Assembly (NCBI GenBank): GCA_051362555.1 | Contig: CM120646.1 | Location: forward strand, 10,416,001 to 10,480,000 | Length of the DNA: 64,000 bases | Reading direction: 5' to 3' | Source of the DNA: Lingula anatina | Lineage: Eukaryota > Animalia > Brachiopoda | Shown: positions 8,161-62,377 of the stretch, in pieces | Numbering within the stretch: position 1 is the first letter of the stretch | Layout: the number at the start of each line of letters is the position of its first letter | The notes under the pieces: generated by a model | The model's input: only the letters and a program-made list of their open reading frames with translations | Told to the model about the DNA's origin: nothing | Database searches by the model: none | Position numbers and translations under genes: made by a program

Positions 8161-8453
8161 ACGTAGCTTAGTTCATGGGGCTTACTTTGAAACCGGGTTT
8201 GTTGCTCTAACTCATTCCTATGATGTGAAAAAACCGGTAGAAATCTATGTAGATGCCAGTCCAGTTGGCATTGCAGGTATTTTAACGCAAGACAAAAAAC
8301 CGATATGCTACGCAAGCCGTCAGTTGACTGATGTAGAAAAGCGATACTCTCAGACAGAAAGAGAGGCATTGGCTATTGTGTGGGCATGCGAACAGTTCAA
8401 TCTTTACGTAAATGGCTCACAATTTTCCGTAATTACTGATCACAAGCCTTTAA

Positions 8454-15964: not shown

Positions 15965-16001
<37 letters not shown>

Positions 16002-16183
16002 GACAACAAGTTTCTCATATTTTAGGGCTGGAATGATGTCAGTTTCCATGGTTCTAACCAGATCCCTACCCCAGCTCTGGACACTTTGGCCTACACTGGG
16101 GTGATGCTGTCTAATTACTATGTCTCTCCAATCTGTACTCCCTCCAGGAGTGCCCTGTTGACAGGGAAACATCCTATTCATAC

Positions 16184-16217
<34 letters not shown>

Positions 16218-20860: not shown

Positions 20861-20913
<53 letters not shown>

Positions 20914-22724
20914 CTCTCTTCATAATTATTTATCACAGTGGCACCTTGGGTTCTTCAAGAAGGAGTACACCCCGACTTTCCGAGGGTTTGACAGCCATTT
21001 TGGCTACTGGCTTGGCAAGGAGGGCTACAGCAATCACAAGGCTTTTGCATATGTATGTACCTCAACTAACTAATGAGTAATTTAAAAGATGCTAATTATA
21101 CTGATTTCAGTATTATGGTATGATGTACAATGTATGCCTTTTGCAGAAATTTCAAACTGTCTTTCATAATCTGTGCTTTTTTATATGGAGCAAACATAGC
21201 TTTTCATTTCATCACTCTGTTTGACACAAAAAGAAAGAAAAAAAGATTATTACAAAAATTTATAACATTCATCATGCTTTTCCAGCCAGGAGCTTATGGT
21301 CTTGATTTCCGCCGTGATATGGCTCTGCAGTCAAACTACAGTGGGAGATATTCAACAGAACTTTTCACTGAGGAAGCCACCAAAATAATTCAGAGACATG
21401 ACACCAACAAGGTAAATATTTGGAAATTGTTAACTATGGGTATTTTTTCATTTCACCACCAGCATAGGCATTGCCAATACACATGGTTTGAGTTCCGTCC
21501 ACTGACTCTGCAGCCACGTCACCCTCACTGCTGCTCCTCCCAGACATGAAGGGCCTGTGTCACCATCTCTTGGATATAGGTCACATACAAATTCAACTTT
21601 TGTCTGTTGTGATGATAAACCAAGAACCAATAATTAAAACTATCATCAAAACTATAGCCTGTGTACAATCATAACTCTTGCAGAGAAAACCATCTGTTCC
21701 AAAGAAATCACACATTAAATATTTCACAGTTGAATATACCCTTTACCCTGCTTCTGCCCATATAATACAGTGTACTACCACCACATTCACCCAACTCTAC
21801 TTCTCCACAACTAAGACCCATACATTCACACCTTCCTTAAAAATTTTATGCACTTACAATACCAGGACACGGTATCACCTCTCAGATTCTCTAAGTTAGT
21901 TATATATATATATATATATATATATACTTTAAAATATTAGAATTTTCAATTAAATTTTGAGTTATATAGCGTTCATGAAATTGACATCAGGTGGTATATA
22001 TAAGTTGCCTAGAAAGTTCAGTATTTTTCCAAACTATGCTGGTGAAATCAGTTGGTTAAGTAGTGATGTCATCATACAAGGAGCTTGCCAGAATTTATAG
22101 TTGTATCTGTAAATAATGCCTATAATGTATTGTTCTTTATTTCAGCCCCTGTTTCTCTATCTTCCACACCAAGCAGTCCACAGCGCCAATCCATGGGATC
22201 CACTTGAAGCACTGGACAAGTATTATAAACTGTTTCCTAACATTCATGATGAAAATAGGAGAAAGTTTGCAGGTAAATAATGCAGCCATGTCAAAACTGA
22301 AATGATTTTCTTTTTTGTTATTTTTAGGGTAAGGGGGAGTGTTTTGATGCCTATAATTTTTAAAGCTACTTAAATTGTCTTTTTGGTTATACTTACATCC
22401 AGTTTTGTTTGGCAAAATGGGAAAATCTTATCATAAATGTTGTATTTCATCAGTTTACTTCTGATCCCTCCCCCCCCCCCCCCCCCCCAAAAAAAAATCA
22501 CATCAAATGAAAAAATACATGTGGAGTTTGCAACAGTGCTTTGAAATCTCTGAATTCAAATATTTTGCAGCCATGGCAGCTGCCTTGGATGACTCGGTGA
22601 AGAATGTGACCAAAGCTCTGAATGAACGGGGCATGTTGAACAACTCTGTGATAGTGTTCAGCACAGATAATGGTGGTCCTGCTGCTGGATTTAATGCCAA
22701 CCATGCCTCCAACTGGCCACTGAG

Positions 22725-22772
<48 letters not shown>

Positions 22773-24042
22773 GTATTCACTCAACAAAACTTTTCCTCAG
22801 TAATATACTGCTGTACAGGTGTAGCAGCTAAATTTGGCAGTGTATTTGTATGGCCAACATCTTAACATAATATGTCCAAAATTGAGGAATTCTGTCATTT
22901 CTTTTTGAATGTCCCTGCATTGGCATTGTACGTACGTTATTGAGAAATTGAAAGAAATGTTGCTAATGAGCTTAATGTCTTATATTTCACTTCTGTACAT
23001 GTACCTTTCATATTTGTTTTCTAGAGGTGTGAAGACAACACTTTGGGAGGGAGGAGTGAGAGGTGCTGGCTTTATGTGGAGCCCTCTCATCAAAAATTCT
23101 GCCAGAAAACTTCCTGATCTCATGCACATCTGTGACTGGCTACCAACCCTGTATCATATTGCCGGAGGTGACTCATCCACACTAAAAAATCTTGACGGAT
23201 TCAATGTGTGGAATACTCTGTCACAGGATGCCCCCACCCCCAGAGTTGAATTGCTGCATAATATTGATCCCATGTTGAATTATTCAGCTGTAAGGGTTGG
23301 CGAGTACAAGCTTATCTTGGGTAATATTTTTGGTGGTACTTGGGATGGCTGGTATGCTCCCGAACAATACCATCTTCTAGATGAAACAGAGCTTGATAGA
23401 AACTCACTGCAGTACAAGACATGGCCAGACATTTCTCTAGATTCTGATACAGCAAAAAACATGGTGAAGATGACACAATCTGAGACAGGTAATAAGAAAA
23501 ATGACATATCACATGAAGTAAAGCCCAATGGAAGAATACTTCTAAAGAGGAGCATTGGATATTCAGACCAAAAGAGTGATTTCATGCCATTTTCTGATAA
23601 ATTGGCAGCACATTTTGGGATGTCTGCAATTAATTCTGGGAAGCATGCAATGGAATCTGGGAAATCTCTAAAAAATCATGGAATTGAAAATGACGTGGTG
23701 TTAGACAAAGAGCTTCTTGGCATTGTGTCCCGATATATTCCAGTAGATGTGGACACGTTTCACCTCACTGTGACTCCAGATGTGGTGACTTGTGGAGCCA
23801 AGCCTGCCAATGCTAGTACCAACTGTCAGCCCACCAATTCACCCTGTCTGTACCACATTGTGAAAGACCCTTGCGAGTACAACAATATAGCAAATGAAAA
23901 TCCACAACTCGTGGCAAAAATGTTGACAAGACTGAGGGAATTCAATGCTACTGCAGTGCCCCCTAGGAATAAACCACAGGACTTGAGAGGCCTCCCTATA
24001 TTCAATAATGGCGCCTGGGGACCATGGATGGATGGGCTATGA
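15258..24042 (+). CDS. ARSB: Arylsulfatase B-like sulfatase, 8 coding exons, ~640 aa
   Basis: join(15258-15368,16026-16185,20024-20136,20939-21052,21286-21411,22146-22272,22571-22724,23025-24042) = 1923 nt, all GT-AG with consistent phases. Signal peptide, [23 protein letters not shown] (FGly motif), [37 protein letters not shown] vs ARSI/J orthology not resolvable. Confidence 0.93.
16026..16185 (+). CDS. ARSB: Arylsulfatase coding exon 2 (catalytic CTPSR)
   Basis: tttag|[28 protein letters not shown]|gtgtgt. Confidence 0.93.
16286..16469. mobile_element. Small MITE in arylsulfatase intron 2
   Basis: TIR attcacaacagtggattaacagatc / gatctgttagtccactattgtgaat. Confidence 0.7.
16516..16730. 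mobile_element. MITE; an inverted sister copy at ~16765-19202 is split by the P-like element
   Basis: TIR attcccagag..gatcgatct / agatcgat..ctctgggaat. The body is the reverse complement of 16765-16931 plus 19155-19202. Confidence 0.75.
16932..19147. mobile_element. Non-autonomous P-superfamily-like DNA transposon (2216 bp)
   Basis: Perfect 30-bp TIR caagaagttataatgagaaggagtagaaac; 7-bp TSD tctagtg (16925-16931, 19148-19154); CA..TG termini; three ~205-bp internal tandem units (18177-18745); no transposase ORF seen. Confidence 0.85.
20024..20136 (+). CDS. ARSB: Arylsulfatase coding exon 3
   Basis: ttcag|..[23 protein letters not shown]|gtaatg. Confidence 0.92.
20939..21052 (+). CDS. ARSB: Arylsulfatase coding exon 4
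   Basis: cacag|[26 protein letters not shown]|gtatgt. Confidence 0.92.
21286..21411 (+). CDS. ARSB: Arylsulfatase coding exon 5
   Basis: tccag|[23 protein letters not shown]|gtaaat. Confidence 0.9.
22146..22272 (+). CDS. ARSB: Arylsulfatase coding exon 6
   Basis: ttcag|[20 protein letters not shown]|gtaaat. Confidence 0.9.
22571..22724 (+). CDS. ARSB: Arylsulfatase coding exon 7
   Basis: tgcag|..[23 protein letters not shown]|gtgctc. Confidence 0.9.
23025..24042 (+). CDS. ARSB: Arylsulfatase terminal coding exon
   Basis: tctag|[38 protein letters not shown]. Confidence 0.93.
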
Positions 24043-31490: not shown

Positions 31491-31799
31491 ATGTGGAAGC
31501 AAACGCTGGTACTTGTGTTAATCGTTGCCGTGGTTTGCGCTACACAGACGTCTTACAACAGATATCCGTACAAAAAAGGCTACAGCGGTTACCGTGGCAA
31601 CCAGCTTGGCGGTTACCACGGTGGTAAATTTTTGAGCAACAGATACAAAGGTTACCATGGTGGCTATGGTGGGTTATACAGTTACTATGGTAACTACCGC
31701 AGCCGTACACGTTACGGCAGAAAATATCGCAGACCAAGCTACAATTTTAAACGAAAACCAACTTGGTACACGAAAAAGTACAGACACCCGTATTACTGA
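31491..31799 (+). CDS. Secreted Tyr/Gly/Lys/Arg-rich low-complexity protein, 102 aa
   Basis: MWKQTLVLVLIVAVVCA signal peptide. Mature ~85 aa has 20 Tyr, 20 Lys+Arg, 14 Gly and no Asp/Glu. Good start context aagATG; TATA/Inr upstream. Confidence 0.88.
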   Translation: MWKQTLVLVLIVAVVCATQTSYNRYPYKKGYSGYRGNQLGGYHGGKFLSNRYKGYHGGYGGLYSYYGNYRSRTRYGRKYRRPSYNFKRKPTWYTKKYRHPYY

Positions 31800-32395: not shown

Positions 32396-32942
32396 GTTGA
32401 AGGCGTTAGTCTCGTGACATAGCTGAAGCAGTATCTCTGATATTTGGCTGTCATTTTATCAATCTTTATTCAATATTCAACGTTGATGCGGTTACGTCCA
32501 ATCTTGAAGGGCATCGGAAACGTAGATTCAGTTTGAGAGTAAGGCTGGAAAAAGAAGTTCTTGGCTGGAATTTGCTTGAAAAAAGATGCAGCTCGTTTCA
32601 CCGATACCACAAGGGTGTCCTTAAACTGGACGGAAAAGTAGAGACAATTTACGGACCTCTATAGTTATCATTTTCACATACATTCGTGCAGGACTCCGTT
32701 TAACATAGATCTTCAGTCAATTAAAATGAAGCACGCTTTTATCTCTACCTCATCTTAGTGTGCGCCATTTGTTTTTCTTTTAACGGAAAAAGCTTCTTTG
32801 TGTGCTAGCGTAATACTATTACAATGATTTATCTATCACCCAAAGTACTTAATATTTACGGTTTCACAAGTTGAGGCAAGTTTTTAATTTTAGGTCTCAT
32901 AAGTTGAAGCAAGTTTCTATTTTAAAAGTAGGCCCCCGATCT

Positions 32943-33610
32943 GCACTTAAAGGGATAATTGGTCTTGCATTTTTACATTTTTCATATTCAGCAAAAGAGG
33001 TTGAAAACCCGAGATTTCCCCCAATATACTTTGATGCGTCTTCAAATAAAGGCAAATAAATCATTGATTTCTGTCCTATCCTTTGTTGCCTTTGCCTTGG
33101 ACTAGTCAAACGATGGGTCCGACATGCTACCAACATTACCTTGTTCATTCAAAACAACATTAAAAAGTTCATTTCTTTAACTTTTGCAAATTTATTTGGT
33201 ACAAACAAAATTCACCTTCGTTTTCCCCACCTGCGAGCTCGTCTTGTCAGTGACGCGGAATTTACAATTTTTTATACGGGCCAGCTGCTAATGTCATACA
33301 CATTACGTACTTCATCGTATCAGACTAATCACATCCGTCTTAGTCTGATACCACATTTGAATATTCTGTCGTATGTAACAGAAATTTTGTAGGAACTCCA
33401 TGAAGTAGATCATTCATCAAATGTTCTAAATAAGTTATTCATAAACTAAATTACTACCACCCTTGTTAACAAAAAAGAAGTCTGTTTACTGACAACAATT
33501 ATCAAATAAATCAAAACTTTCAATTTTATTAAGATTTGTTATATTCATCATACTAAGTATGTAACATTTATATAAACAAGGCAGCAAAGCTGTCAAATGT
33601 ACAGACAAAA
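32943..33610 (+). repeat. Near-identical direct duplicate of 61253-61912
   Basis: Sequences align almost base for base; the ORF track shows the same translations at both places. Confidence 0.92.
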
Positions 33611-38808: not shown

Positions 38809-41800
38809 AGAGCAAAGTAACGCAGCACCACAGCTTTGTATCCAAAAACCAAAATTCAACTCATTACCTGGACATCGGCTAGTTTCATGGTAGAAATTGG
38901 AGTGACAGAAATAGTGACGAGATTGTAAAAGTTTAAGTGAGAGGCGAAAGAGGATAATTTCTACTAATGATTAAACGAGCATACATGCGAGTCCATTTAA
39001 ATTTATTTGCAAGTCTCGCTTTTTTTTAGCGATCTGTACACGACCACTTTTTTTACAAAAAAAAAAGAAAGAAAGAAAATTATAGAATATTTTTTATTCA
39101 ACTATTATGTACAATTTTGAATATTTACAGTTGATTTAAAAAGGACTAATAATCAGTAATGAACTACGTAAACGCAATGAATTAATACATAGCAGTATTA
39201 TCAAAAGTTGCAAGATTTTCCATCGTCTTCATCCAGCGTCGGAACGCACACAGTCCGATAATGCAGGTCTTGTGGTCGAAAACTGGTACCAGATGCTCTC
39301 GGGCCGTGGGGAAAAACCCGTCTAAACCCTTTGTGGGGAATGCCGGGAAAGTGCCCACGCCCGGATAATTCGGTCCTTATAACATGACAAAATCGGTTTC
39401 TATTGGCACGGCGCTGCGTACAGTTCAAGAATCGTCCCGTTTTAGACAGCATTGTGTGACGGAATAACCTTTGTGTTGACTAACTATTCTATATATATAC
39501 TATACACGAGGTGAAGCATAAAAACTTATTAAAGTAATTCTTACAGAAAAAGGCACTGAAGCCAATAAAAAACTAACAAGAGACATAACAATTAAACAGA
39601 ATCATTTTGACTTTATCTTGGAGAATTAAAACCATAAATAAAGTTAATCATTTTACAACTGCAAGCATCTTTCAAAACTTGATTATAGTTCTCTTTATGA
39701 TAAAATGCAAACAGATTCAAGTAATATGATTATAACTCGGGAATATCAATGATTTCAACTAAACTTTGATATATAATTCGACTAAAAATACCAGGTTTCT
39801 AAAATGTAACTTTGCACTGAAATCGCAACTACCTGCATGATACAAGTACAGAATAAAGCAAGCTTGCTTCAAAATATTTCGGATCTCACATTACACTGTA
39901 TGACCGCCCATGTAAATTTCAATCTGAATTTTTTTGATCCGGAGAAAAGGTGCATATGTGATGAAGTGGATGTATTTGTCAAGTATAACACTTGAGAAAA
40001 TCTGAATATTAGTAATGTGATCTCTATCTTGAGAGATGACAGCATCTCTCAAGAAGAGCAGACTGTACAAAAAATATAATGAAATATTTTCTCACACGTA
40101 AAATATTTCATTACAATGTAAAATCTCTTCATGTAAAAGCGTTTACATGAAGTCAGATTTTACAAAGATGTGAGGTTTGTTAGTAAGGTTAGTGTGCAGG
40201 TTAAGACCTTTTCAAATGCCATACTGACAAACAACTCCACATCATCAAAAGCACAAATTTGAAAAATGACCATCTCAGATTGAAACAAAACACAGACGAC
40301 CACAAGTGGTGGGAATGTTTTTGTGAGCAAAAAACTATCTGCATTCAGAATGTGGATAAAGCAACTCTATATTCAAATTTATTAATATAATAATTATAGC
40401 AACTGTAGAGGTAGACTTTTCCTACAGAAGCACACATCTTATACAATTGATCTTGTATGGAATGAAGAATTATCTTGAACCTCAGTTTTCTCTTCTGTTA
40501 TTGAAATAAAATGGTTCACTGCATAAGGCATAAAATACAAATGAAATTTGATGCAATTTCACCTTGACATGTTTGTGACCCATGAACCCCAAATATTCTC
40601 AGCATCCAAAAGACTGATACATTATTAGACTGTATTCCCACTACATTCAGTACTGTATATTGCCTTCATTACCATTCCACATTCTTTATATTTGTTTGCA
40701 GAACAAGCCGTGTCCTTCAACACCAAAACTCGTGGGATGTCCGAGCATCCATGAAAGTGTCCACAGGGCTCCTTGCTAACGCTGTACAGTGTTCAACATC
40801 TTGGACATTTGGTCTTGGGTCGACGTTATCTGACATCATGCAGGCGTAATTATTGGAAAACTCCCAATTCGTAGCCTACAAATGAAATCCAACTTTTACT
40901 CAAAAGTATGAAAAGCTATATCGAAAGCTTGCAGTAACTGCAACAAAGAAAGTATATCACTGATATTTACACACCGTTAACATTAATGAAAAGCTTGGTT
41001 CTTAAAATGATCAGAGCGTTATTTCCAAATGTACAGTGAAATATGCTTCCTTTATTGAAATATATATATCAACTTTTTAGAGTAAGTAGACAGCAGTCTT
41101 CAAAAAATAAATTATTTCAAACATTTGACAAAAAAGTAAGAAAAGATGTTGCTATATTGAATATTGTAATGTTAGCCTACATGTTAAATTGTTGACTGTC
41201 TGTGCTACTTCTAATTCTACTGTTTGTTTACATAGGATGTAGTTTTTGATCACTGTCAATAATAAGAAATGCCATAATACACCAATAATAATACTTAAAA
41301 AATTCAGAACCACTTTTCTTAAGTTGTTGATCCCCAATAACTTACAAAGTTATCTGTATAAAGATCCCTCAGTCCTGAAGAAGTGTTTCATCTGGAGGTT
41401 TGGTAGTTGCAATCTTCATTTTTAGAATCCACCACTTTTGGTAGCCTGCAAATTTAAATTATTACTTCAAAATGTAATAAAAGTCAACCATTTGTATATG
41501 AAATGTGTTTGTAAAGTTTCAGCAGTTTGATGGGAAATAAATATAAAAAGCACTTTTGTCACAAACTTGGAAAAAACATTCAAGCGAAATATTTTGACAT
41601 GCCACTGGCGACCTTCAGACTTAATGTCACAATGGGGTATTGCACAAATTAGTTTTAACGAAGGAAAAGGAACACTAACAGCATTTAAACGACTCTACTC
41701 AAAGACAAGTTTAAGTAAAGCCTGAACAATCTAGATCCAGCGGGAGGAGTGTACTAGTATTCCATCAAGTGTTTAATTTGTGAAGGATTTATATGGGAGA

Positions 41801-42084
41801 GACAAAGAGAAAGTTGAACGTTAGAGTTAAAGAACACGGGAAGGAATAAGAAAGGGTACCCGAAGAGGGAAAAATACACTACAGCCCAAGGTAGCCTTCT
41901 GCTACAACGAACCATCACAAAAAAACATTGATTGGGAGAGTGCCAAGATTCTACAAAAAGAAAGTGACTGGAGAACAAGAGGCTTAAAGGGAGGCATATA
42001 AACCAGGAAAATGCCTAACAATCTGAACAATATAGAGAGATGGAAATAAATACTCACTTCTACGGTGGCCTTTTATTACCACAA

Positions 42085-42494
42085 CCACAGCACTGGAGGT
42101 GGGGGTGGTAGCTGCTAGTATACAATTTCTGGACCAGTGACAACGTCCCGGAGTCACATTGGTGGTGGGTGGTGGGGGCGGTAGCTCCAAGTAATCTGGA
42201 CCACTGACCACGCCTCGGAGTCACATTGTTGGTGGTGGGTGGTGGGGGCGGTAGCTCCAAGTAATCTGGTCCACTGACCACGCCTCGGAGTCACATTGTT
42301 GGTGGTGGGTGGTGGGGGCTGTAGCTCCAAGTAATCTGGACCAGTGACCACGCCCCGGAGTCACATTGGTGGCGGTGGGTGGTGGGGGCGGTAGCTCCAA
42401 GTAATCTGGACCAGTGACCACACCTCGGAGTCACATTGGTGGTGGTGGGTGGTGGGGGCGGTAGCTCCAAGTTATCTGGACCAGTGACAACGTC
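42085..42494. repeat. 70-bp minisatellite, ~6 copies, G-rich on + strand
   Basis: ggagtcacatt at 42150, 42217, 42287, 42357 and 42427. Confidence 0.95.
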
Positions 42495-43953
42495 CTGCAG
42501 AATATTGAGACTGTTGAGGATCTGAAAGTTGACGAATGGCATGTCAAAATATTTTGCATGAATGATAAGGTTTTTCCACATCTGTGACAAATTAAAAGAG
42601 CTTTTTACCTGTGAAAAATGAGCATTGAATTTGCTAGAGTAAATTGTAAATAGAAAACAAATGCCTGCACCGAGTGACAGGTCCCAAACATTCTTAAAAC
42701 AATTGTCTAAGACCTTGCACAAAATGCTCAGTTTGTTGGAGTTGCACTGATAAAAGATTTGTATTATCTATACAATGAATGACAATCTAGTTCATTTACC
42801 CTTATCCTGTCCCATAACTTACCTTGAATGCTCTCTAATCACAACTACTGAAGGGCTCTTGAAACACTATACGATATAGCTGACATGGCTTTCTCCATTT
42901 TAGCCTTGTTAACCTTGTTAAAATGGACCGTCATCAGGACAGGCGCTCGCCAATGCTATCTGCCTCAACTACAAAATAAAAAATTTTAAGTCAAAAGTTT
43001 CCCTCTTTACTTCTCCCACCCAAATCCAATCTACTAACCATAAATATCTTAATCCTAGGAGTGGGTCATGGGTAAAAGACATTGCCTTCTAAATGTGAGC
43101 TGTCAAATTAATGTGGCTAACGGTTTTTAGTTTTTCAAGGTATGAAAAATCACTTAAGTGTTTTGTTTCCCCCAAAAAACATGAGTGATATGTACCTTTT
43201 AAGGCTTGATAGGTTTCCATCTCTGTGAAACGCCATATGCTTCTGATGCTCCCCCATGCAGCCCCCTAACATACAGACCATGGAAGGACTCAACCATGCA
43301 CCAAGGATTGAATGTGACCCTCTTCTTGCACCTCTTTCAAAAAAGCGGGACTTTATCAGGAATTGCCCTAATTGAGTTCTGTAAATAGAAAGGAAAATTT
43401 GATTAGTTTTCAAAAATTGTATATCAAAAGCAGTCTGCAGCCAGAAAAATTGTTGGAATCGGTAGATTTCCAGAATGTGTCAATTTGGTGACATGGCTGT
43501 TAGATTTTTTCTATAAGTATGAAGAAGAGCTTTTGATTTATTTTAAATGTAACTGTTACATCATGATTCGAGAAAAATGTCCAGGTCTTGTTAATACAAA
43601 TATTAATGCAATCCAGTCTAGTCCTATTGAACTTTGTATTCGAACCAGTGAATCAAGATTCAGACATCTATATCTAGTTTTTAGGAAAGAAGGTGGACTG
43701 AATGGCCAGTAGGGTGAAAAGTTTATGGCACAGACTGCTGCTGAAAAATTAATTTTAGTGTATTGTTCTCGCCAGTAACACGGGTTACCTTGCAGGTTTT
43801 TCTGCCTCAGTGAAACACCATATGCTTCAGACGCTTCTCCAATGCAGCCTCTTCAACAGACCGTGGCAGGACTCACTGGCACCAAGGATTGAGGGATGTA
43901 TCGGAAGTGTGCACGTGTCCCTCTTCTCCTTGCAGTTGCCATGAAACGTTGGA

Positions 43954-44385
43954 CAGGACTCGCTGGACGCTTCCTAGTGCAGCCACCTCGTAGACAGACC
44001 ATGGCAGGACTCGCTGGACGCTTCCCCAGTGCAGCCACCTCGTAGACGGACCATGGCAGGACTCGCTGGACGCTTCCCCAGTGCAGCCACCTCGTAGACG
44101 GACCATGGCAGGACTCGCTGGACGCTTCCCCAGTGCAGCCACCTCGCAGATAGACCATGGCAGGACTCGCTGGACGCTTCCCCAGTGCAGCCACCTCGCA
44201 GATAGACCATGGCAGGACTCGCTGGACGCTTCCCCAGTGCAGCCACCTCGCAGATAGACCATGGCACGACTCGCCGGACGCTTCCTTAATGCAGCCACCT
44301 TGTAGACAGGCCATGACAGGACTCGCTGGACGCTTCCCCAGTGCAGCCACATCAAAGAGACAGACCATTGCAGGACTCGCTGGCA
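43954..44385. repeat. 52-bp minisatellite array 1, ~8 copies
   Basis: Unit ggcaggactcgctggacgcttccccagtgcagccacctcgtagacagaccat. Confidence 0.95.
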
Positions 44386-44549
44386 CCAAGGAATGGTCAA
44401 AGTAGCTTAAGTGTAGATGTGGGACGTCTCCTTGCAGTTGTGTTCTGTCAACAGAAAGAAAAATGAATTAATGACTTTTCATACTATGTCAGCACTCTGC
44501 AGTCAGGCTTACCTTTAAGTGGTTTCCATCTCATTGAAACACCATATGA

Positions 44550-44875
44550 CAAGACTCGCTGGACGCTTCCCCAGTGCAGCCACCTCGTAGACAGACCATG
44601 GCAGGACTCGCTGGACGCTTCCCCAGTGAAGCCACCTCGTAGAGAGACCATGGCAGGACTCGCTGGACGCTTCCCCAGTGAAGCCACCTCGTAGACAGGC
44701 CATGGCAGGACTCGCTGGACGCTTCCCCAGTGAAGCCACCTCGTAGACAGGCCATGGCAGGACTCGCTGGACGCTTCCCCAGTGCAGCCACCTCGTAGAC
44801 AGGCCATGGCAGGACTCGCTGGACGCTTCCCCAGTGAAGCCACCTCGTAGAGAGACCATGGCAGGACTCGCTGGC
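44550..44875. repeat. 52-bp minisatellite array 2, ~6 copies
   Basis: Same unit, with array-specific variants (gtgaagcc, acaggcc). Confidence 0.95.
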
Positions 44876-44932
44876 TCCAAGGGATGGTCGAAGTAGCTTA
44901 AGTGTAGATGTGGGGTGTCTCCTTGCAGTTGT

Positions 44933-46107
44933 GTCCTGTAAACAGAAATAAAAACGAGATTAGATTTCTTTCATTTCTCAAACTTCCCTTCCAAAAAGAA
45001 AAAAATATTACATACCTTAAGGAGTGTAGTCGAAGTCCCACAGGTGGCGCCCATCATCTTCTATGTCCTGTAAACAGAAATAAAAACGAGATTAGATTTC
45101 TTTCACTTCTCAAACTCCCCTTCCAAAAAGAAAAAAAGATTACATACCTTAAGGAATGTAGTCGAAGTCCCACAGGTGGCGCCCATCATCTTCTATGTCC
45201 TGTAAACAGAAATAAAAACGAGATTAGATTTCTTTCATTTCTCAAACTCCCCTTCCAAAAAGAAAAATAGATTACATACCTTAAGGAGTGTAGTCGAAGT
45301 CCCACAGGTGGCGCCCATCATCTTCTATGTCCTGTAAACAGAAATAAAAACGAGATTAGATTTCTTTCATTTCTCAAACTCCCCTTCCAAAAAGAAAAAA
45401 AGATTACATACCTTAAGGAGTGTAGTCGAAGTCCCACAGGTGGCGTCCATCATCTTCTATGTCCTGTAAACAGAAATAAAAACGAGATTAGATTTCTTTC
45501 ATTTCTCAAACTCCCCTTCCAAAAAGAAAAAAATATTACATACCTTAAGGAGTGTAGTCGAAGTCCCACAGGTGGCGCCCATCATCTATGTCCTGTAAAC
45601 AGAAATAAAAACGAGATTGGATTTCTTTCATTTCTCAAACTCCCCTTCCAAAAAGAAAAAAAGATTACATACCTTAAGGAGTGTAGTCGAAGTCCCACAG
45701 GTGGCGCCCATCATCTTCTATGTCCTGTAAACAGAAATAAAAACGAGATTAGATTTCTTTCATTTCTCGAACCCCCCTTCCAAAAAGAAAAAAAGATTAC
45801 ATACCTTAAGGAGTGTAGTCGAAGTCCCACAGGTGGCGCCCATCATCTTCTATGTCCTGTAAACAGAAATAAAAACGAGATTAGATTTCTTTCATTTCTC
45901 AAACTCCCCTTCCAAAAAGAAAAAAGATTACATACCTTAAGGAGTGTAGTCCAAGTCCCACAGGTGGCGCCCATCATCTTCTATGTCCTGTAAACAGAAA
46001 TAAAAACGAGATTAGATTTCTTTCATTTCTCAAACCCCCCTTCCAAAAAGAAAAAAAAGATTACATACCTTAAGGAGTGTAGTCGAAGTCCCACAGGTGG
46101 CGCCCAC
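44933..46107. repeat. 132-bp tandem repeat, ~9 copies (exon+intron unit on - strand)
   Basis: cttaagg anchors at 45016, 45148, 45280, 45412, 45544, 45673, 45805, 45936 and 46069. Confidence 0.96.
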
Positions 46108-46459
46108 CAGTTTGCAGTCTTCTTCCTGGACCTGTAATAAAAAGAAACCTGGAAAGCATGGGAATATGCAATGACACTACGACTCCAGCCCACGACAGCA
46201 AAAAGGTGAAGTATCCTGATGACCGAGCGACGATTCCTCGTGGGGAGAAGCGAAGATTTTAGCTGGCCAGCTAAGAGAAACGCCGAATCCACCGTCTAGA
46301 CGTCTGCGTGTGCAGGGAACAATATGTCGAAGAGCGATGCGTTGACGTAGGATGAGTAGAAGATTCGGAGAAATGGGAGTCGACTCCCGTGTCCTTTGTG
46401 CTTGATACAGGGCGCAGCACATGGCATCCGTCCTGTTGCTCTAGATCTGTCCGCTGTTG

Positions 46460-46518
46460 AGTGAACGCACTTTTAAAATTTTGCGCTTTTATACCTTTGT
46501 TGACGTATAGTCACATGA
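46460..46518 (-). promoter_or_regulatory. TATA plus initiator core promoter with upstream CRE half-site and E-box
   Basis: Minus-strand TATAAAA at 46493-46487; TCACT initiator A at 46462 (31-nt spacing); TGACGT at 46501; TCACATGA at 46511. Confidence 0.6.
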
Positions 46519-47056
46519 TGGCGTTCTTGTTGTCACCAATGGTCAACTTGTTCAAAGGGGATGGCCTTTGATAGTGATGCGCAAAGTTGGTAATAATATC
46601 TTATCAACATATACATTTTCTTTTATATTTTATATTTTGATTATTCTGCCTGTCAGTTTGTTTATAATAAGAGTAATAAGTTCTAAGCAATGTCTGTGAA
46701 ATGTGCAGGCAAATTTGATGAAAATTTCTGAGCAACATACCTTCTCCCTAAAATTTTTATAGGTACGATGTCCGTTAAGCTGGTAGCTGTGAACTTCTCG
46801 CAGGCTACTTTAGTGTGCGGGTATTTGAACACTGATCCAAAATGTGGATAATGTAATTTGGCGTAGGGTACGTGACTGCATTTTTGAGGCAGCCTGAGGG
46901 AGTATGGTTGTTCTGATTGTAGTGAATTGTAGAGAGACAATTGGAAGTACACTGGACTTAGCATGTTCAGTCACCCAAGTACTCTGAAACACATTTTGTA
47001 ATCAGCTGACTTGTTACTCTGAAAAATGAAAAAACAAATTATATTGATTTACAAAA

Positions 47057-47353
47057 CTGGAAGATAGAAGCAGTGGATCATATTACTTATGCCAGGCAGA
47101 AGAAACGACTGAATGTATATTTTTATATTCAAAACGTCTACTGATTTAGGTAATAATTAATAGCCTGGAAGATAGCAGCAGTGGATCATATTACTAATGC
47201 AAGGCAGAAGAAACGAGTGAATGTATATTTTTATATTCAAAACGTCTACTGATTTAGGTAATAATTAATAGCCTGGAAAATATGCAAGGCAGAAGAAACG
47301 AGTGAATGTATATGTCTATATTCAAAACGTCTACTGATTTAGGTAATAATTAA
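47057..47353. repeat. ~108-bp tandem repeat, ~3 copies
   Basis: aggcagaagaaacga..aaaacgtctactgatttaggtaataattaa repeated three times. Confidence 0.85.
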
Positions 47354-50300
47354 CAACTGACGTCTCCCTTCATGGCGTCGGGTTATCAGTACTCCCACAC
47401 CAGTAACATGAGTTATGAGTTGAGCAGAAACAGAAAAAGATTTTTTATAAAGATAATACAAGTATATGTGTAGGCCCATTTACCTTTTTTTATATTACTA
47501 AACGTAAGAATTGTTTGTCCAAGTGAAACTTTACTTACATCAGCCTAGCAACTAAATCTGACGTTTAAACGTCTCCGAAAATAACTAGAATTTTTTGAAT
47601 AACTCAATAATGCGGCCACCTTCGAGGTGTCGCCCGGTTTTTAAAAATTGAAAAAAGAAACTTTTCGGGGCGTCTTTTGTCGCTGGTCATTATTTTCAGT
47701 TGTTTGATGTTTTTTTGTAATATTTTAGCCATTGATAGAATCTATAATTTATAGTTACATATAGTTACATCCACGATTAGCTAGACGAAATGGTGACAGG
47801 GAAAAGTCAAATTTTTTAAACGGCAAAAACTGCATTCTCTTAGAAAGCAATTAGCAAACATTCATTACTGTGAAAAATTCAACCGAAGTTGAAGACAAAA
47901 TGTGTCAAAAATAAACGTGCATGTCGTAATACCTATTTAAAGCAGTCTAATTTTTTTTAGTATTAAAAACGTGTAAATATTATCCACATAGGATATTTTT
48001 AAAGCCTTCGATATTTAAAATATTTAAACTTCCCATACTTTGAGGCATGCATGAGTCGGAAAATGTTTGCATAATTACATAAAAAACTAGAATTATCTCT
48101 TTATGTGACCACAGTTTACTCATGTGCCTTACATCATTCCCTTAAACCCTTTCCCAATATCGATTTCAGATATTTTTGACACATTTTGTCTCCATCTGAA
48201 TCACGTGAACGTTATCAAGTGTCATAAGGCGTACATTACGAAAATATTTAGGTCTTGGAACGTGATTTGATGACTTTTTTAAATGCATATATATACAATT
48301 ATAAATTTATAATTAAGTTATTTAATATCAAATTATAAGTTCTGACCGAGTTTTAAAATTTATTTTAGGAGGGGTAAAAAACCCCAACCCCATCTAATAT
48401 ATATTTGATACATCCGTAGGCTTATGTCCTTAGAACTAGGCGTACAAAATGTGTCTTCTAGCTAAAGTTATTATTATGGTGTATGTGTAATTAAAAAAAA
48501 AAACTACGTAAGAGTGGCAATAGGTCATGTGTTTCGAATGCACCCCCACTCTCCGATCAGACATTACTTTTGTATAATTCACAGTCCATCTTCGTTGTAG
48601 TTTGTGACTTTACGTCATTTCTTAGTGAAGCGGTGTTGTCCTCAATTTACCTTAAATGTCCAAATTACTAAGAAGAAACCACTTGCAAGAATTATAAGGT
48701 TTTTTATACTGCTAGGTCTATAGACGTGATACACACGATATTTGGCAACCCCACAAAATCTGTTTCTTAAAATTTTGGTTCCACCACAAAGCTTAGCACT
48801 ATCATTCTTTTTTGCTTTATTGATATATTTTCAGTACATAAATAACCATTGTCTGTTGCCCAATTTTGCACAAAATTAAGATAATCCCCAAAACCTCATT
48901 AATTGTGTTTCCTCCATCCCAAAAAATGTTAAAAATTTCTCCTCATAATTTAGTAGTGCACTGGCATCTACACAGTACATAAATGTATCATTATAATAAC
49001 ATCTTGTTCTTACTGATAACATAATCAGCTTAATTCCATAACAATTCTAAAATGTTAATAACAATGAAAATTCAAAGTAGATGGCAAGATTCTTATTGTG
49101 CTGATAAAGATAAAATATGTAAATTCAATACTGATTAGGTACTGTATACTGGCTCATTGAAAAAAAGGGAACCGTTTCACAAAAAAATTAAGCTTAGACT
49201 GCTAAATCTGGATAGCCAACTATACAAAGTCAACTTTGCGATATTGTCTTACAACTACAATTTTTTAAGAATGATTGGTCCACAGTTGATGAGTAGAATA
49301 TACATAAATGGGCTACTGACACCACTGCAAGTAAAATACTTGCCAAGACAATCAAAATGTAAATCAAAGGAAAGTAAAAAGAAAGTAAAAAGACTGGAAA
49401 AAATGAGGCAAAATTGATAACTTGGTTAATGAGCGAACAATACTCTAGTTTTGATTAAATCAGAACTTTTCTTGCACCTTTTCTTGGGGAATAGGGGATT
49501 GGTGTAGTGAAAGCCCAACCTTAACCTTTGGATGCTATTCTCATTAAACATATGCATAAAAGACAAAATTTAGACCACAAATAGATTCATGCAATCTACC
49601 AACCTTTTTTACAGTGAGTCATTGCAACTTATCAGTTATTTCTGGCCTAGGCTATCTGTAAGATTCTTACAACTGTGAAGTGCAACTTAGCCAGCTAAGT
49701 CTTTATAGGCTCAGATTTTAGACTACAAACCAGCTTCAAACATTTAGTAAAGCAAGTGCAAGGAATAGTTAGTTTGAAGGCTCTGCCTCCCCATAGGGTG
49801 AGAACAAACACAGTCACACTGTATGATACATTACAGAAAACATTGGTTAAAAATATACTCTGGAATTTTACATTTTCACTAGTATAGAATCAATTTGATT
49901 TCTAAAACTGACTTATTATAAAAATACTCCTGTCAATTTAAAACTTTTTCATAAAGCATATCTGAAATACACTGATAAAATGTTATTAAAAATATTAAAA
50001 TTTGATATTCACAGATAAAATAGGCTCAAGTCAAAATGATTAAGACAATTATTGAAGCATTATTCAAACCCCAATTTTGATTATTTTCATACAATTAGTG
50101 ATTCACAAGTTCTTTAACAGAGTTGTACCTAATCTGACTACATGATATCTATCAAAATCTCTCTAAAATCAAGTGACAAAAAATGCCCACAGTTTCAAGC
50201 ACCATAAAATATGGCTTAAGTAAGTAATATCCTCAATTGTTTCATAATAAACGTCATGTCACTTGAATGTACCATTCTCCAGAAAAAAAGATGAACTTGC

Positions 50301-50536: not shown

Positions 50537-50601
50537 TTAGGCCTCTCCTCTCCACTCGGGGTCCTCTTGCAACTGAACCTGGCTGACATCCATGGTTACA
50601 T
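50537..50601 (-). CDS. MOV10: MOV10-like terminal coding exon
   Basis: ttcaag|DVTMDVSQVQLQEDPEWRGEA*. Confidence 0.8.
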
Positions 50602-50642
50602 CTTGAAAAATAATATATTCCCAAAAAAGTTTAAATGGTGCA

Positions 50643-50674
<32 letters not shown>

Positions 50675-53600
50675 TAAAATCAATAAATCTTGGACACATT
50701 ACTTGTCGTACGTCTGAATAACATGACAGACAAGAAGAAAATAGTTGCTCTTGAAAATGGACTTTAAGTAATGAAAATGCAAGATGACAGCTAGTAGATA
50801 GTACATGTGCATGCAATTTATTTGAAATTCTGACTTTTCAGTCCTAATGATTTAGATTATTTATAGCCAATAATCTGAGAAAATAAAATATTCAACAGAG
50901 AAATTGATTGCAATAAATCCTGCTCGTACCTGACTGCTTAATATTCACTGCAGCAAACCTCTCTACGACATCGTCGAGCTGATCAGTAGGGTCATCGTAA
51001 TCACATCCTGTGTACGCTTTTTTCTCGAGGCAGTACTTAAGGAAACTACACCAAAGAGAAGTTGAAAATAAAGAAAGAATTGCCTACTTTCTTTTGTCTT
51101 TCTGTATGGACTTTCATTCACAATAAAAGAAAGAATTGCCTAGTAGACACTATTTTGTCTGTCAGTTTGGAGTTTAATTTACATGTTTTTTAACTTTCCT
51201 TTTTTTTTCTATTTTTTTTTTCATTTAACAGTCTGTCTGAACTAAAATATGATAGCTTTCTCTTTTTAATCTTTCTATCCTCTGTTTTTTTTTTTTTGTC
51301 AGTCTGTCTGAACAAACATTAAAAATTTAATTTATGAACTTTATTAAATCCTTAACATTTCTTTTTTTGTTGGTATGTCTGTCTGTCTGAACAAGAGTTC
51401 TTAGAAACAATGAGATTAAATAAAGATTAAATAAAGGAAAAAAATTTTGAACCTAACATGGCTGATTTGTGTTTGGTTTGAAAAAGTCTTATAATTTGAT
51501 TGAACTTTTTTTGCTTACTGATCAAATAAATTAAAATAATTCACTTCACCTGTTCCAATGTTCATATTGCGAAAGAAGAAACGGATTCCTTACAACAATC
51601 AATAGGGCCTTTGCTCTTGTGATCGACACATTAAACCTCTGAAAAAAAAATTAATCCCACATGTAACTGTATGTGCGGGTGAACACTGAAGACAGTATAG
51701 TCTGAGACTAACTGTTCATATCTCTTCTGTGAATTCCGCATCACATGGCATAGTCTCTGCAGTGCCATAGTGGAAAGAAATGGTGATGAAAATAGTATGG
51801 ACTATAGCTGTTTAAATAACCTTACATTTCAAAATATGTGTGTGCACATCCACATGTACAAAGTCTTATGAATTATGTATTCACGCATGTACACATGCCA
51901 CAGCACAATCATGGTAATGACACTATCTTTTCAATGGGCAAAAATTATCAAACTTTCAAATGTATACCTTTATAAACACATAAAATATATAGTATTAGTG
52001 GTACTCTTACTGCACAGATTAGAACTATAGAGTAGCTTACTTTTTTATTCTGTTGTGACCATCCAATAGGAATTGGGTAGGAGTATCAAAATTTTAAAAA
52101 TTAATGGCCTAAAAAATACCGCATCTGTAAAATTCATGATTTCCCCCCCACTGAAAAAAATCAAGTTATTACCATATGCTGAGGTGGCACTAGCAATTTT
52201 TTCTAAAGCCAAATTACTACTTTTTCATCACTCTTTTCTCCAAAATGGTTTAAATTTGACTAAAATAAGTCAAATCAACCCTATTTTGTTTAGCCAATTG
52301 AAGTCAGTTTTAGCATTTGGCTTAACTGGGCAGTGTTAACTCTACCCCAGTTTGTGTGTCCACATGCATAAGTGTACAAATGACTGACCTTTGGGTTCTT
52401 TAAAAAGCCCAGCTTGAACTCTGCGTCCGGAGCCAGGTAATCGGGGTTACTCCTCACGGTGGACACCATGATGACCCGTCTCTCCTGACCCTGAAATTCC
52501 TCCACACTGCCCACCTTTATGTCCCGAAAGTTTTTCTTGAACAGCAGTTGCCTCAGTTTTTGAACCTGTGGAGAGAATAAAAAGGGATGTCTGTGCATTT
52601 ACAGGCCCGTAACCAGCAATTTCAAAAGGGGGGTTCTTTTTCTGAAAAAGTGGACCTTTTTCCATAAAAACTTCATGTACCTAGATCAAATTTTACCCAC
52701 AGTGGACCTTTTCCCAGCAAAAGTGGCAGTTCTTTAAAACCCCCGAACCCCCCCTGGCTACGTGCCTGATTTAATACTCATCCATTACATTCAGCATTTA
52801 CTTTATCTTATTTTACTAGTAGTTAGCCATAACTCTGAACAGGCAGCATATTGTTAGTACATTACATTATAACCAAGCTCAGGTGGATTAGTAATTGAAT
52901 TTGCCATGTGAGATGGGAGTGAGCAAATTCACCACAATTTTAATTTTAATTTTTTTAATTTTTCTTTATACTTTATCACATGTACACTTCTGTAGTTAAA
53001 GTAGGACTTTTCATAAGCCTAACAGTACCATATCTATAACATACTATTAACTCAGATGTATTGTGGCTGTACTTTAAGGTAAATGGAATGTTGGACCTTT
53101 AAAGAATGTTGACTACTGGCTCTTTAGAGCTACGCCACATTCTTAGAATCTATTGCCCTAACTCAACAAAAAGGCCCAGTTAATAATTGTAAACAAATTT
53201 GCAAAGTTTTACTAGGCAGCTTCAATTAATTGGCATTTGGCATGAAGCCCGATTTGATATTGCAAACTGTTGTTAGTAACTTGAAAAGGGAGAGGGACTG
53301 GGGAGGGGTTGCCTGTATTCATCATGGAATAAGCTCTGTCATATTTCCCTCACTTGTTTTCTGTAGGGGGAAATAATTCCAATTTCATTCTGCAAGACTC
53401 GGATGCCTCTGGCCTCCAGTAGCTTCTCCACATATCCCAACACAATAGTTGCTTCTTCTGGATTGAAGAATGATGGACTCCTTTCCTCCCTCATGTCCTC
53501 CCCAACCACTCCATGGAATACAAAGGGACACCCCATTTTTGGTAAATCTTCCCAGTTGCAGCGGGACTCCCTGGCAAGTCGGTCAGCACAGGCTTCTAGC

Positions 53601-53808
53601 TTGTTGTCGTAGAACTGTTCGTTTGGAAGCTTGAGGATAGCAGGACGTGATCTGTAGTTTTTGAGGAGTTTTGTAAGGAGGAATGGGTTGTAATGGCCTT
53701 GACGTTGGTACAGTACATCTTGATCGTCGTCATCTGAGCCAGGACTCGAACCACCCCTCTTCTTGTACACATCACAGTAGGTCATGTATCTTTCTAAGAG
53801 TGAGAGTC
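50537..53808 (-). CDS. MOV10: MOV10-like UPF1-family SF1 RNA helicase, last five coding exons (5' part not in window)
   Basis: complement join(53808-53354,52565-52389,51638-51550,51045-50930,50601-50537), phases consistent. SLLERYM, LLKNYRS, FHGVVGEDMREERSPSFFNPEEA, IGIISPYRKQV, KVGSVEEFQGQER, STVRS, LGFLKNPKRFNVSITRAKALLIVV, C-terminus EDPEWRGEA*. Confidence 0.93.
50930..51045 (-). CDS. MOV10: MOV10-like exon
   Basis: gtgtag|FLKYCLEKKAYTGCDY..IKQS|gtacga. Confidence 0.85.
51550..51638 (-). CDS. MOV10: MOV10-like exon (helicase motif VI)
   Basis: tttcag|RFNVSITRAKALLIVVRNPFLLSQYEHWN|gtgaag. Confidence 0.9.
52389..52565 (-). CDS. MOV10: MOV10-like exon
   Basis: ccacag|VQKLRQ..VEEFQGQER..FLKNPK|gtcagt. 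Confidence 0.93.
53354..53808 (-). CDS. MOV10: MOV10-like exon
   Basis: ttacag|GLSLLERYM..IISPYRKQ|gtgagg. Confidence 0.93.
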
Positions 53809-54569
53809 CTGTAAGACATTAAAATGATGAGACATTTCATATACATGTATAAATATATAAATGAAGTTATTCTTTATCAAAGAAACTAAATAACTATGAG
53901 GTTCAAAAGGTTTTAATTTCACCATTATATGTACAAAAGAGATGAAAGAGACATTTTGTCAATGCTTAAGTACAAAATCTCTACTACCACATGTAAAAGT
54001 ATTTCAGTGTTTGCAATTTTACCAGAGCTTATAGAACTACCAAAAAAAACTGATCCTTGTCAAAACCTAGTCCTAGTCAAAAGAAAGACTTTCTTTTGTC
54101 AAATTTAAAATTATTGAAGGAATAATTCTGGGCACATCCATAGCAGTAAAAATGTTTCATTAATTGCATTACCTTTTATTTTACTTAAATCTTAGAAGCA
54201 GAAATCACTGGTCAATAAAAAGCTTTTAGAATAAGTCCTACATGTATATGATTTTACCAGACTCTCAAACACCTTTGTAAATATTATAGTTAATCATAGT
54301 ACTTTTGTCCACAATTTTCAACTTCACTTTTCTTTTAGTCATAGTCTTATTTCATTTTTATTTAAGCCCGAGGTAGTAATGTAACTTCCCCTTTTAATGC
54401 ACTTCATAACACATACACTCACACACACTGGCAGATTAAAACTTTACTACTACTCATATTATCATTTTTATTATAATGGCTGTTGGGGGCATATTATTAT
54501 AATTAAATATATTAAAAACTATTATAATTATAATTATATATATTAAAAACTTATTTGCAATATAAAACA

Positions 54570-60500: not shown

Positions 60501-62377
60501 CTGTGAGTATAATGACAATTGGCCTATCTGTTTTTCTTATATTGTGTTATCAGTGTTGCATATATGTTGAAAAAAGTGAAAAAACAGCATAACTTCCCTA
60601 AAAATGGCCTGATCATGCTGATTTTCGAACTTGACCTGCATATTATGAATATTCATCAGTTTTATAAATTTGAATACAAAATGTAAAACGGTATTCCACT
60701 TATCGTGTTATCGCTGAGTGCACAGCGACGACGGCGACGACAGACGCAGATGATGGCTATATGTACAGACACATCTGTGTCTGTACATAAAAAGTTTTCC
60801 ACTTATCGTGTTATCGGTAAAAGTGCAAGGCGACGGCAGCGACGAAGGCGACAGTGACGACAGACGCAGATGATGGCTATATGTTCAGACACATCTGTGT
60901 CTGTACATAAAAAGACAATCTTTTAAAAAAATTCTACAACAGTTGAGAAATACCCAATGTGCCGGGTATCTGGTTTACCCCAGCAGCAGAAATAAAAACA
61001 ACAAATAGGAGCATACTTTCATAACACCTTGAGAAGGTTCTGTACAAGATTTGCTTACCAATAACATTAATATATAAAACTCTTTAGCACTTAAAGGGAT
61101 AATTGGTCTTGCATTTTACATTTTTCATATTCAGCAGAAATAAAAACAACAAATAGGAGCATACTTTCATAACACCTTGAGAAGGTTCTGTACAAGATTT
61201 GCTTACCAATAACATTAATATATAAAACTCTTTAGTTTTATATATTAATATAGCACTTAAAGGGATAATTGGTCTTGCATTTTTACATTTTTCATATTCA
61301 GCAAAAGAGGTTGAAAACCCGAGATTTCCCCCAATATACTTTGATGCGCCTTCAAATAAAGGCAAATAAATAATTGATTTCTGTCCTATCCTTTGTTGCC
61401 TTTGCCTTGGACTAGTCAAACGATGGGTCCGACATGCTACCAACATTACCTTGTTCATTCAAAACAACATTAAAAAGTTCATTTCTTTAACTTTTGCAAA
61501 TTTATTTGGTACAAACAAAATTCACCTTCGTCTTCCCCACCTGCGAGCTCGTCTTGTCAGTGACGCGGAATTTACAATTTTTTTATACGGGCCAGCTGCT
61601 AATGTCATACACATTACGTACTGTATCGTATCAGACTAATCACATCCGTTTTAGTCTGATACCACATTTGAATATTCTGTCGTATGTAACAGAAATTTTG
61701 TAGGACGTAGATCATTCATCAAATGTCCTAAATAAGTTATTCATAAACTAAATTACTACCACCCTTGTTAACAAAAAAAAGAAGTCTGTTTACTGACAAC
61801 AATTATCAAATAAATCAAAACTTTCAATTTTATTCAGATTTGTTATATTCATTATACTAAATATGTAACATTTATATAAACAAGGCAGCAACGCTGTCAA
61901 ATGTACAGACAAAAGCCAGAAAATAAAAATGCAGAAAATAGGATACTGTCAATTCTGATGCACTAATGTATTATGCTTACTGTAACTGCATAGCCAACTT
62001 AAAATATAATTCTCCATATCAGTGGATTAGGATGAAAGTAAAATGTGTAACAAGCATTTGACTGAGTTCCCATACCTAGATCATTCTAACAGGATCAATC
62101 CAACTCCAAGGGGTTTCTCACTAATTTGCTTTCAGCTTAAGTGGCTTAGGACTCTGGCATGCCAGTTTCAGTAGGCATGACAGACAGCTAAGCCACTTAC
62201 ATTGATTGCAATTTAGCGAAAATTCCCTTGGAGATAGATCGATCCACAGTTAGCGTGATAGGGTCTGGAAATAGTCCCTAAGGCTTCAGGCTGATAAGAG
62301 TTAAACTTTGGAAATGCCAGAATGAGATAAAGTGAAAATTTCACAAACATAAAAAATTGCTTAAACTCAATTTAAAA

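What the first reader, a model, noticed from the sequence alone, without database searches (positions are those of the whole stretch)
40360..47620. Candidate repeat-built multi-exon lncRNA downstream of MOV10
Seen: at least 17 minus-strand segments bounded by strong splice signals, e.g. 47018-46741, 46131-46069, 8 repeated mini-exons, 44935-44513, 44444-43789, 43378-43196, 42968-42823, 42494-42058, 41445-41346, and a last exon from 40875 to an AATAAA near 40380. There is a TATA/Inr promoter at 46493/46462. GC-rich sequence is confined to the predicted exons and AT-rich sequence to the introns. The 52-mer and 70-mer arrays lie wholly inside exons and have periods not divisible by 3, and the joined exons carry stops. 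Established: Xist, Rsx and Firre are lncRNAs built from tandem-repeat modules. Inference: an undescribed modular scaffold lncRNA or small-RNA precursor. Alternatively a transcript carried by a large transposon, or a decayed gene.
Basis: partly seen in the sequence, partly recalled or inferred. Interest (0 to 1): 0.82.

Follow-up and report, generated by a model that had tools for sequence, protein, structure and literature searches.

The report
Repeat-built noncoding RNA family in brachiopod
A lamp shell (Lingula) transcribes a stop-riddled RNA whose exons arose by repeated copying of modules; RNA reads confirm its strand, start and several splices but show its block of eight mini-exons mostly unspliced, related sequence sits in three database gene models, and it is likely a nucleus-retained non-coding RNA that would offer many copies of the same protein-binding site, though no function is shown.

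Summary
Real, with corrections. The window is Lingula DNA. Stranded RNA reads show a minus-strand transcript starting near 46460, below the TATA at 46493. It is spliced at 42058>41445, 41346>40875, mini-exon>mini-exon and onto exon 44935. No splice to 46131 was seen. Four middle junctions were not tested. The 80-nt mini-introns are mostly retained (intron/exon depth 0.77-0.93). Coding is unlikely: mini-exons stop all frames, exon-1 reads carry frameshifting indels, and the longest ORF (171 aa) has 28 upstream ATGs. It is a family: three L. anatina 'uncharacterized proteins' on scaffolds of different length translate the same module, no other species matched, and exon-1 reads vary at 16 sites per 100 nt. 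No Rfam match, hairpin or snoRNA box; not part of MOV10. Best reading: a Lingula-specific, Firre-like-in-layout lncRNA family, likely nuclear (0.4). A near-neutral duplicating transcription unit is almost as likely (0.35).

The parts
46462..46540 (-). Pol II-type promoter: reverse CCAAT 46540, ACGTCA 46506, TATAAA 46493, start near 46462 (motif names recalled)
   Evidence: motifs; sense depth falls to 0-4 above 46447 in X1-X3
46069..46462 (-). Exon 1 (394 nt); all three ATG frames (43, 81, 29 aa) stop inside it; the internal AG at 46131 was not seen used; reads show many diverged haplotypes and frameshifting indels
44932..46106 (-). 132-bp exon+intron array: mini-exons 45987-45936, 45856-45805, 45724-45673, 45592-45544, 45463-45412, 45331-45280, 45199-45148, 45067-45016 with 79-81-nt introns; stops in all three frames; spliced in a minority of reads
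44513..44935 (-). Module exon A with six 52-nt units; acceptor use seen (8 loose ends in X2); donor untested
43789..44444 (-). Module exon B (head 91% identical to A's head) with seven 52-nt units and a second module copy at its tail; junctions untested
43196..43378 (-). Module exon C, one diverged unit (75% identical to B's tail); junctions untested
42823..42968 (-). Predicted exon D, possibly a more diverged module (36 of 54 to B's tail, p 0.005); untested by reads
42058..42494 (-). Exon E with the C-rich 70-nt array (5.3 copies); donor confirmed, acceptor untested
41565..42057 (-). Read-through into the intron after exon E (depth 17-36 in X1, 6-27 in X3, near 0 in X4 and X7), fading near 41600: likely alternative 3' end or partial retention
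41544..42607 (.). Inverted repeat pair (41544-41619 / 42521-42607, 87 columns, 75%) flanking exon E; possibly a decayed terminal-repeat element
41346..41445 (-). Exon F, both junctions confirmed
40360..40875 (-). Last exon; acceptor confirmed; AATAAA at 40383 but no sharp read end seen
46690..47056 (+).
50537..53809 (-). Context only: last five exons of a MOV10 copy ending at its own stop; not part of the transcript

Best explanation
This is one locus of a likely Lingula-specific family of spliced, very likely non-coding RNAs built by tandem copying of exon modules; it is transcribed on the minus strand from near 46460, mostly keeps its mini-introns, and likely stays in the nucleus, where its repeats would offer many copies of the same protein-binding site, as Firre's exonic repeats do. 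Shown: strand, start region, splicing at four kinds of junction, majority retention of the 80-nt introns (summed over family members), module homology among exons A-C, and related gene models on three other scaffolds. Inferred: (1) non-coding status, because exon-1 frames stop inside exon 1 and mini-exons close all frames; (2) spliced, exported copies would be removed by nonsense-mediated decay, since stops lie far upstream of many junctions (established rule, recalled), leaving unspliced nuclear RNA as the main form; (3) unequal crossing-over changes the number of 132-, 52- and 70-nt units per locus; (4) the units act as repeated binding sites rather than folded RNAs, since none folds better than shuffles.
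For: Sense share 0.97-1.00 over 46040-46447 in X1-X3 and GT..AG joints. Own TATA/CCAAT promoter, with reads ending there. Intron/exon depth 0.93, 0.89, 0.86, 0.77 at the array donor; in human and mouse cells splicing efficiency is the main predictor of nuclear versus cytoplasmic location (PMC6467007, passages). Exons richer in GC than introns, as reported for multi-exon lncRNAs (PMC4338330, abstract). No Pfam family for the three database models. P0088 reads homologous module ends in two different frames and runs through what resembles the 68-nt intron. Exon-1 reads carry indels of 7, 1, 5 and 2 nt. Family: LOC106164805, LOC106153014 and LOC106173768 on contigs of 36, 346 and 687 kb; 27 listed variant sites in 166 nt of exon 1 against 1.6% published heterozygosity.
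Against: No test of location, binding or function was possible. Expression is low (tens of reads in about 1.7 Gb; X4 laid only 8 reads). No relative outside L. anatina was found, so there is no conservation argument. Paralogs differ in unit number and the 3' exon in P0087/P0088 has no match in the window, which fits free turnover. Firre-type local repeats are confined to one locus, whereas these are not. Retention is summed over all copies, so some unspliced reads may come from other loci. Exon-1 diversity could partly reflect pooled individuals, and some scaffolds may be uncollapsed alleles.
Confidence: 0.4

Rival explanations
1. A near-neutral transcription unit: a promoter plus exon 1 plus module exons that spreads by segmental duplication or as a non-autonomous transposon, picks up local 3' exons, and accumulates tandem repeats without any RNA function.
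For: Diverged reads extend upstream of the start (46806-46826) and beyond the AATAAA (40207-40367). Exon-1 reads are mostly diverged (21 of 248 at 99%+ in X1) while 3' reads are often near-identical (67 of 150), though the likeness cut-offs differed, 86 and 88, and the first stretch also collects array reads. The paralog models end in an exon absent here. The neighbouring MOV10 looks like a decaying partial duplicate. Exon E lies between 75%-identical inverted repeats. Recent repeat expansions are reported in this species (PMC13121700, passage).
Against: No transposase ORF in the locus; no target-site duplication seen at the inverted repeats; no second copy in the window. Several diverged copies are all still expressed from the same start region, and duplicated module exons keep canonical splice sites.
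Confidence: 0.35
2. A transcribed pseudogene family: an old repetitive protein gene whose exons kept their GC and splice sites after the frame broke.
For: Exon GC of 0.44-0.59 in the 5' and middle exons resembles MOV10 exons (0.39-0.51). The three database models share one frame across a module junction, where this locus has a stop.
Against: No non-Lingula homolog or Pfam family above cut-off. Unit lengths 52 and 70 rotate the frame. Other hits are repetitive or otherwise unrelated proteins at 24-31% identity.
Confidence: 0.12
3. A small-RNA precursor (piRNA, endo-siRNA, miRNA or mirtron cluster), with the repeats supplying identical guides.
For: Poor splicing, multi-copy state and some opposite-strand RNA.
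Against: No Rfam match at gathering score in the window or at E up to 1 in 40000-47700. Nine segments fold at z -0.94 to +2.17. Of 405 windows, 49 were single hairpins, and the 8 lowest in energy had best z -1.51; no box C in six introns. piRNA production needs no structure and was not testable.
Confidence: 0.08
4. A real small-protein gene family, as the three RefSeq models claim.
For: ORFs of 110-171 aa exist; P0087 and P0088 are 88% identical over 95% of P0087 with the same C-terminus.
Against: The 52-nt unit is stop-free in all three frames (18% of shuffles are too), so such ORFs come free; 28 ATGs precede the longest ORF; homologous sequence is read in different frames within one model.
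Confidence: 0.05

Closest known systems
Firre/FIRRE lncRNA (exonic local repeat RRD; PMC4820808, passages)
   Same: Multi-exon non-coding RNA in which one repeated module makes up many exons (RRD: 7 of 13 human, 11 of 23 mouse exons); lineage-restricted sequence.
   Different: No sequence relation found. Here the module occurs at several loci, whole exon+intron units are amplified head to tail, and most mini-introns are retained. Nuclear retention and hnRNPU binding are shown for Firre and untested here.
Xist and Rsx (PMC6316617, abstract and section 6; PMC6633197, listing only)
   Same: Several distinct tandem arrays in one non-coding transcript.
   Different: About 3-4 kb rather than 17 kb for Xist, low abundance, multi-locus; no evidence on sex linkage, chromosome coating or silencing.
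Ordinary multi-exonic lincRNAs (PMC4338330, abstract; PMC6467007, passages)
   Same: GC-rich exons, own promoter, low expression, inefficient splicing.
   Different: Unusually modular, with a 97%-identical array of splice cassettes and expressed paralogs.
RefSeq L. anatina LOC106164805, LOC106153014, LOC106173768 ('uncharacterized protein')
   Same: Translate the same 52-nt unit and module ends.
   Different: Annotated as proteins; fewer 52-nt units; P0087 and P0088 have another last exon. Probably the same RNA family mis-called as coding.

Membership tests
multi-exonic lincRNA | transcribed and spliced | tested here: met
multi-exonic lincRNA | own promoter, not part of the neighbouring gene | tested here: met
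   sense depth ends near 46460 and is 0 at 46992-47056 in 4 of 4 runs; MOV10 frame ends at 50537; 22 loose-end rows were not shown
multi-exonic lincRNA | no conserved reading frame | tested here: met
multi-exonic lincRNA | not translated | not testable with these tools
   needs Ribo-seq or proteomics
Firre-type local-repeat lncRNA | one repeated module forms many exons | tested here: met
   A, B, C share 72-91%; eight mini-exons; mini-to-A exon-only similarity borderline, p 0.07
Firre-type local-repeat lncRNA | repeats confined to one locus | tested here: not met
   same module in models on three other scaffolds and many read haplotypes
Firre-type local-repeat lncRNA | nuclear retention through repeat-bound hnRNPU | not testable with these tools
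   only intron retention as a proxy
Xist/Rsx | match to described family models | tested here: not met
   no Rfam match
Xist/Rsx | sex-limited expression and cis coating of a chromosome | not testable with these tools
   run metadata are coded; no imaging
spliced-leader RNA gene array | capped mini-exon without upstream acceptor, trans-spliced to many mRNAs (recalled) | tested here: not met
   each mini-exon has an acceptor; listed loose ends at the donor lead to mini-exons or exon 44935; exon depth barely exceeds intron depth
miRNA or snoRNA host gene | pre-miRNA hairpin or box C/D RNA | tested here: not met
   H/ACA boxes were not scanned beyond Rfam
non-autonomous transposon | dispersed copies | tested here: met
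   (few copies known; count not measurable)
non-autonomous transposon | shared termini and target-site duplications | tested here: inconclusive
   no genome held; no termini enclosing the locus

The most novel reading that the evidence does not exclude
An invertebrate, multi-locus Firre-like lncRNA family in which an array of identical splice cassettes acts as a dial: retention keeps the RNA nuclear as a multivalent scaffold loaded with splicing factors, while splicing sends stop-filled copies to decay, so splicing of the array sets how much scaffold exists.
Probability: 0.15. Interest if true: 0.8.

Novelty: new variant of a known kind. Interest (0 to 1): 0.42.

Why it matters
Functional repeat-built lncRNAs are known mainly from mammals and flies (recalled; mammalian cases). 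An expressed family of this layout in a brachiopod, with copies differing in unit number, would let one test directly whether tandem expansion gives lncRNAs function or merely happens to them. It also shows that three database 'proteins' are probably translations of a non-coding family. If neutral, it is still a clear example of exon-intron units amplifying like a minisatellite while staying spliceable.

Tried and rejected
No genome is held, so copy number, termini and synteny could not be measured. The run search listed no RNA holder; this is no evidence either way, and raw-read runs were laid instead. Both lays avoided the arrays, so four middle junctions are untested; 6 of 9 runs were laid (X1-X4, X7, X8), and only X1 and X3 on both stretches. 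MOV10 C-terminal extension: rejected, its frame is complete at 50537. Spliced-leader array: rejected. Rfam, tRNA, folding, hairpin and box C/D scans were blank. One 35-nt pattern of the 52-mer found nothing in metagenome contigs (uninformative for an animal). Seven of the ten hits other than P0087 and P0092 plus one more (8 in all) were judged spurious from their sequences. The Pfam DotD hit is below cut-off with no passing stretch. The bacterial promoter scan does not apply. A CTCF-like look of the mini-exon and a tRNA-box look were recalled resemblances, not tested, and are not claimed. The 50:50 test is inflated by overlapping mates and cannot exclude pooled samples. Literature: searches listed no paper on this RNA by title or abstract start; the three gene ids and accessions occur in 0 papers; 'lncRNA' and 'non-coding' occur 0 times in the main texts searched (PMC13121700 both terms, PMC4595640 'non-coding'). 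Their supplements were not read and may list these loci. No structure prediction was run.
Full report
Setting. The largest helicase exon is 94% identical to Lingula anatina MOV10 and at most 64% to the other 85 hits, so the window is Lingula DNA. No genome is held. The last five MOV10 exons map at 53809-50540 and end at their own stop, 3.5 kb before the finding, so the finding is not MOV10 coding sequence.

Sequence check. All 17 segments have AG and the 16 internal ends have GT where stated. Arrays: 132 bp x 8.9 (44932-46106, 97%), 52 bp (43954-44874, in two blocks) and 70 bp x 5.3 (42128-42492). The 132-bp unit is a whole 52-nt exon plus an 80-nt intron. TATAAA is at 46493, with a reverse CCAAT at 46540 and ACGTCA at 46506; AATAAA is at 40383. 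Exon GC is 0.37-0.59 and intron GC 0.26-0.37. Sites of this strength occur at 0.8-1.9 per kb in flanking DNA, so sequence alone was not proof.

RNA, 3' part (40200-42120; X1, X4, X7, X3; 150, 8, 63, 140 reads laid). Two joints match the prediction, with GT..AG on the minus strand: 41346>40875 (16, 0, 0, 3 reads) and 42058>41445 (6, 0, 2, 5). A third joint in X7 (67 nt, 3 reads) has non-canonical ends. In X1 and X3 most first mates lie on +, as do the spliced reads, so the RNA is minus-strand. Reads also cover 41630-42020 in X1 and X3 and fade near 41600, likely an alternative end; part of this may be duplicate molecules. No sharp end is seen at 40380, and reads beyond it carry several mismatches.

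RNA, 5' part (46040-47056; X1, X2, X3, X8; 248, 309, 178, 37 reads). Sense depth drops to 0-4 above 46447, placing the start near 46460. Exon 1 is therefore 46462-46069. Mini-exons are spliced to each other (3, 16, 7, 11 reads) and a donor joins exon 44935 (8 loose ends in X2). Unspliced reads dominate: 72, 113, 62 and 15 loose ends whose consensus runs into the upstream intron, and intron/exon depth of 0.93, 0.89, 0.86 and 0.77 (edge effects apply, and all copies are summed).

Coding. The three ATG frames of exon 1 (43, 81, 29 aa) all stop inside it, and a mini-exon closes all three frames (two internal stops; the third just before the donor, read). The longest ORF of the spliced model is 171 aa, lies in the 52-mer array and has 28 upstream ATGs; the unit is stop-free in all frames, as are 18% of shuffles. 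Exon-1 reads carry indels of 7, 1, 5 and 2 nt.

Family. That ORF finds two L. anatina 'uncharacterized proteins', the representative search adds a third, and a profile finds only these three (only about 8,000 top candidates scored). They lie on contigs of 36, 346 and 687 kb, while reference MOV10 lies on one of 1.67 Mb. They translate the same unit and module ends with fewer units; P0088 reads homologous module ends in two frames and passes through a stretch resembling the 68-nt intron. None has a Pfam family. Exon-1 reads show 27 listed variant sites in 166 nt at many frequencies, against 1.6% heterozygosity (PMC4595640, passage). Paralogs are the simplest reading; pooled samples and uncollapsed alleles could inflate it. 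Within the locus, exons A, B and C share 72-91%; the link from mini-exons to A beyond the shared acceptor is borderline (p 0.07).

Other RNA classes. No Rfam match, no tRNA, no fold better than shuffles in nine segments, best z -1.51 among the 8 lowest-energy of 49 single hairpins in 405 windows, and no box C in six introns. A spliced-leader array is excluded by cis-splicing and the lack of excess exon depth.

Mechanism. Shown: a TATA-driven, low-level, partly spliced RNA of repeated modules with diverged relatives. Inferred: it is non-coding; spliced copies would be decay substrates (recalled rule); unspliced copies likely stay nuclear, as poor splicing predicts in mammalian cells (PMC6467007, passages); repeats would multiply protein-binding sites, the model given for Xist and Firre (PMC6316617, section 6; PMC4820808, passages). 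I give this 0.4. A near-neutral duplicating unit or transposon cargo gets 0.35, because copies seem to share the 5' part and differ at the 3' end, unit numbers vary, expression is low, and no other species matched. Decayed gene 0.12, small-RNA precursor 0.08, real peptides 0.05.

Comparison and novelty. It is laid out like Firre but is not a member: no family match, and the repeats are not confined to one locus. Nothing supports or excludes an Xist/Rsx role. Searches listed no paper on it; supplements were not read. The scan had no note on look-alike DNA. Its other notes on this genome describe tandem exon duplication in coding genes (unchecked), which suggests the process is common here and tempers surprise. 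Verdict: a real, apparently undescribed RNA family, a new variant of a known kind, function not shown; interest 0.42.

Noticed in passing
window 50537-53809 (-): The MOV10 copy matches only residues 813-1112 of P0001, with no further exon up to 64000. It has Arg where 79 of 79 pattern-matched homologs have His and where 64 of 64 have Gly (86 examined): likely a decaying partial duplicate, unless a long intron precedes it.
   Followed up: partly
window 31491-31799 (+): ORF of 102 aa with a hydrophobic N-terminus followed by a Gly/Tyr/Arg/Lys-rich basic body; no Pfam family. Resembles adhesive or shell-matrix proteins (recalled).
   Followed up: partly
window 46690-47056 (+): Low opposite-strand RNA upstream of the promoter, with diverged haplotypes; likely divergent transcription.
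   Followed up: partly
window 39308-39356 (-): Three NF-kB-like sites (motif recalled) in a GC-richer patch about 1 kb downstream of the last exon.
   Followed up: no
window 16000-24042 (+): Multi-exon arylsulfatase-like gene (translations; Sulfatase_C below cut-off).
   Followed up: partly
window 6500-11526: Broken LTR-retrotransposon pol pieces (RT_RNaseH at 8153-8491) and a Tc1-type DDE_3 transposase remnant (10359-10889).
   Followed up: partly
window 32897-33392 and 61084-61703: Two near-identical copies of a repeat giving the same spurious ORFs.
   Followed up: no
window 47057-47353: 108-bp and 85-bp tandem duplications just upstream of the rejected exon.
   Followed up: no
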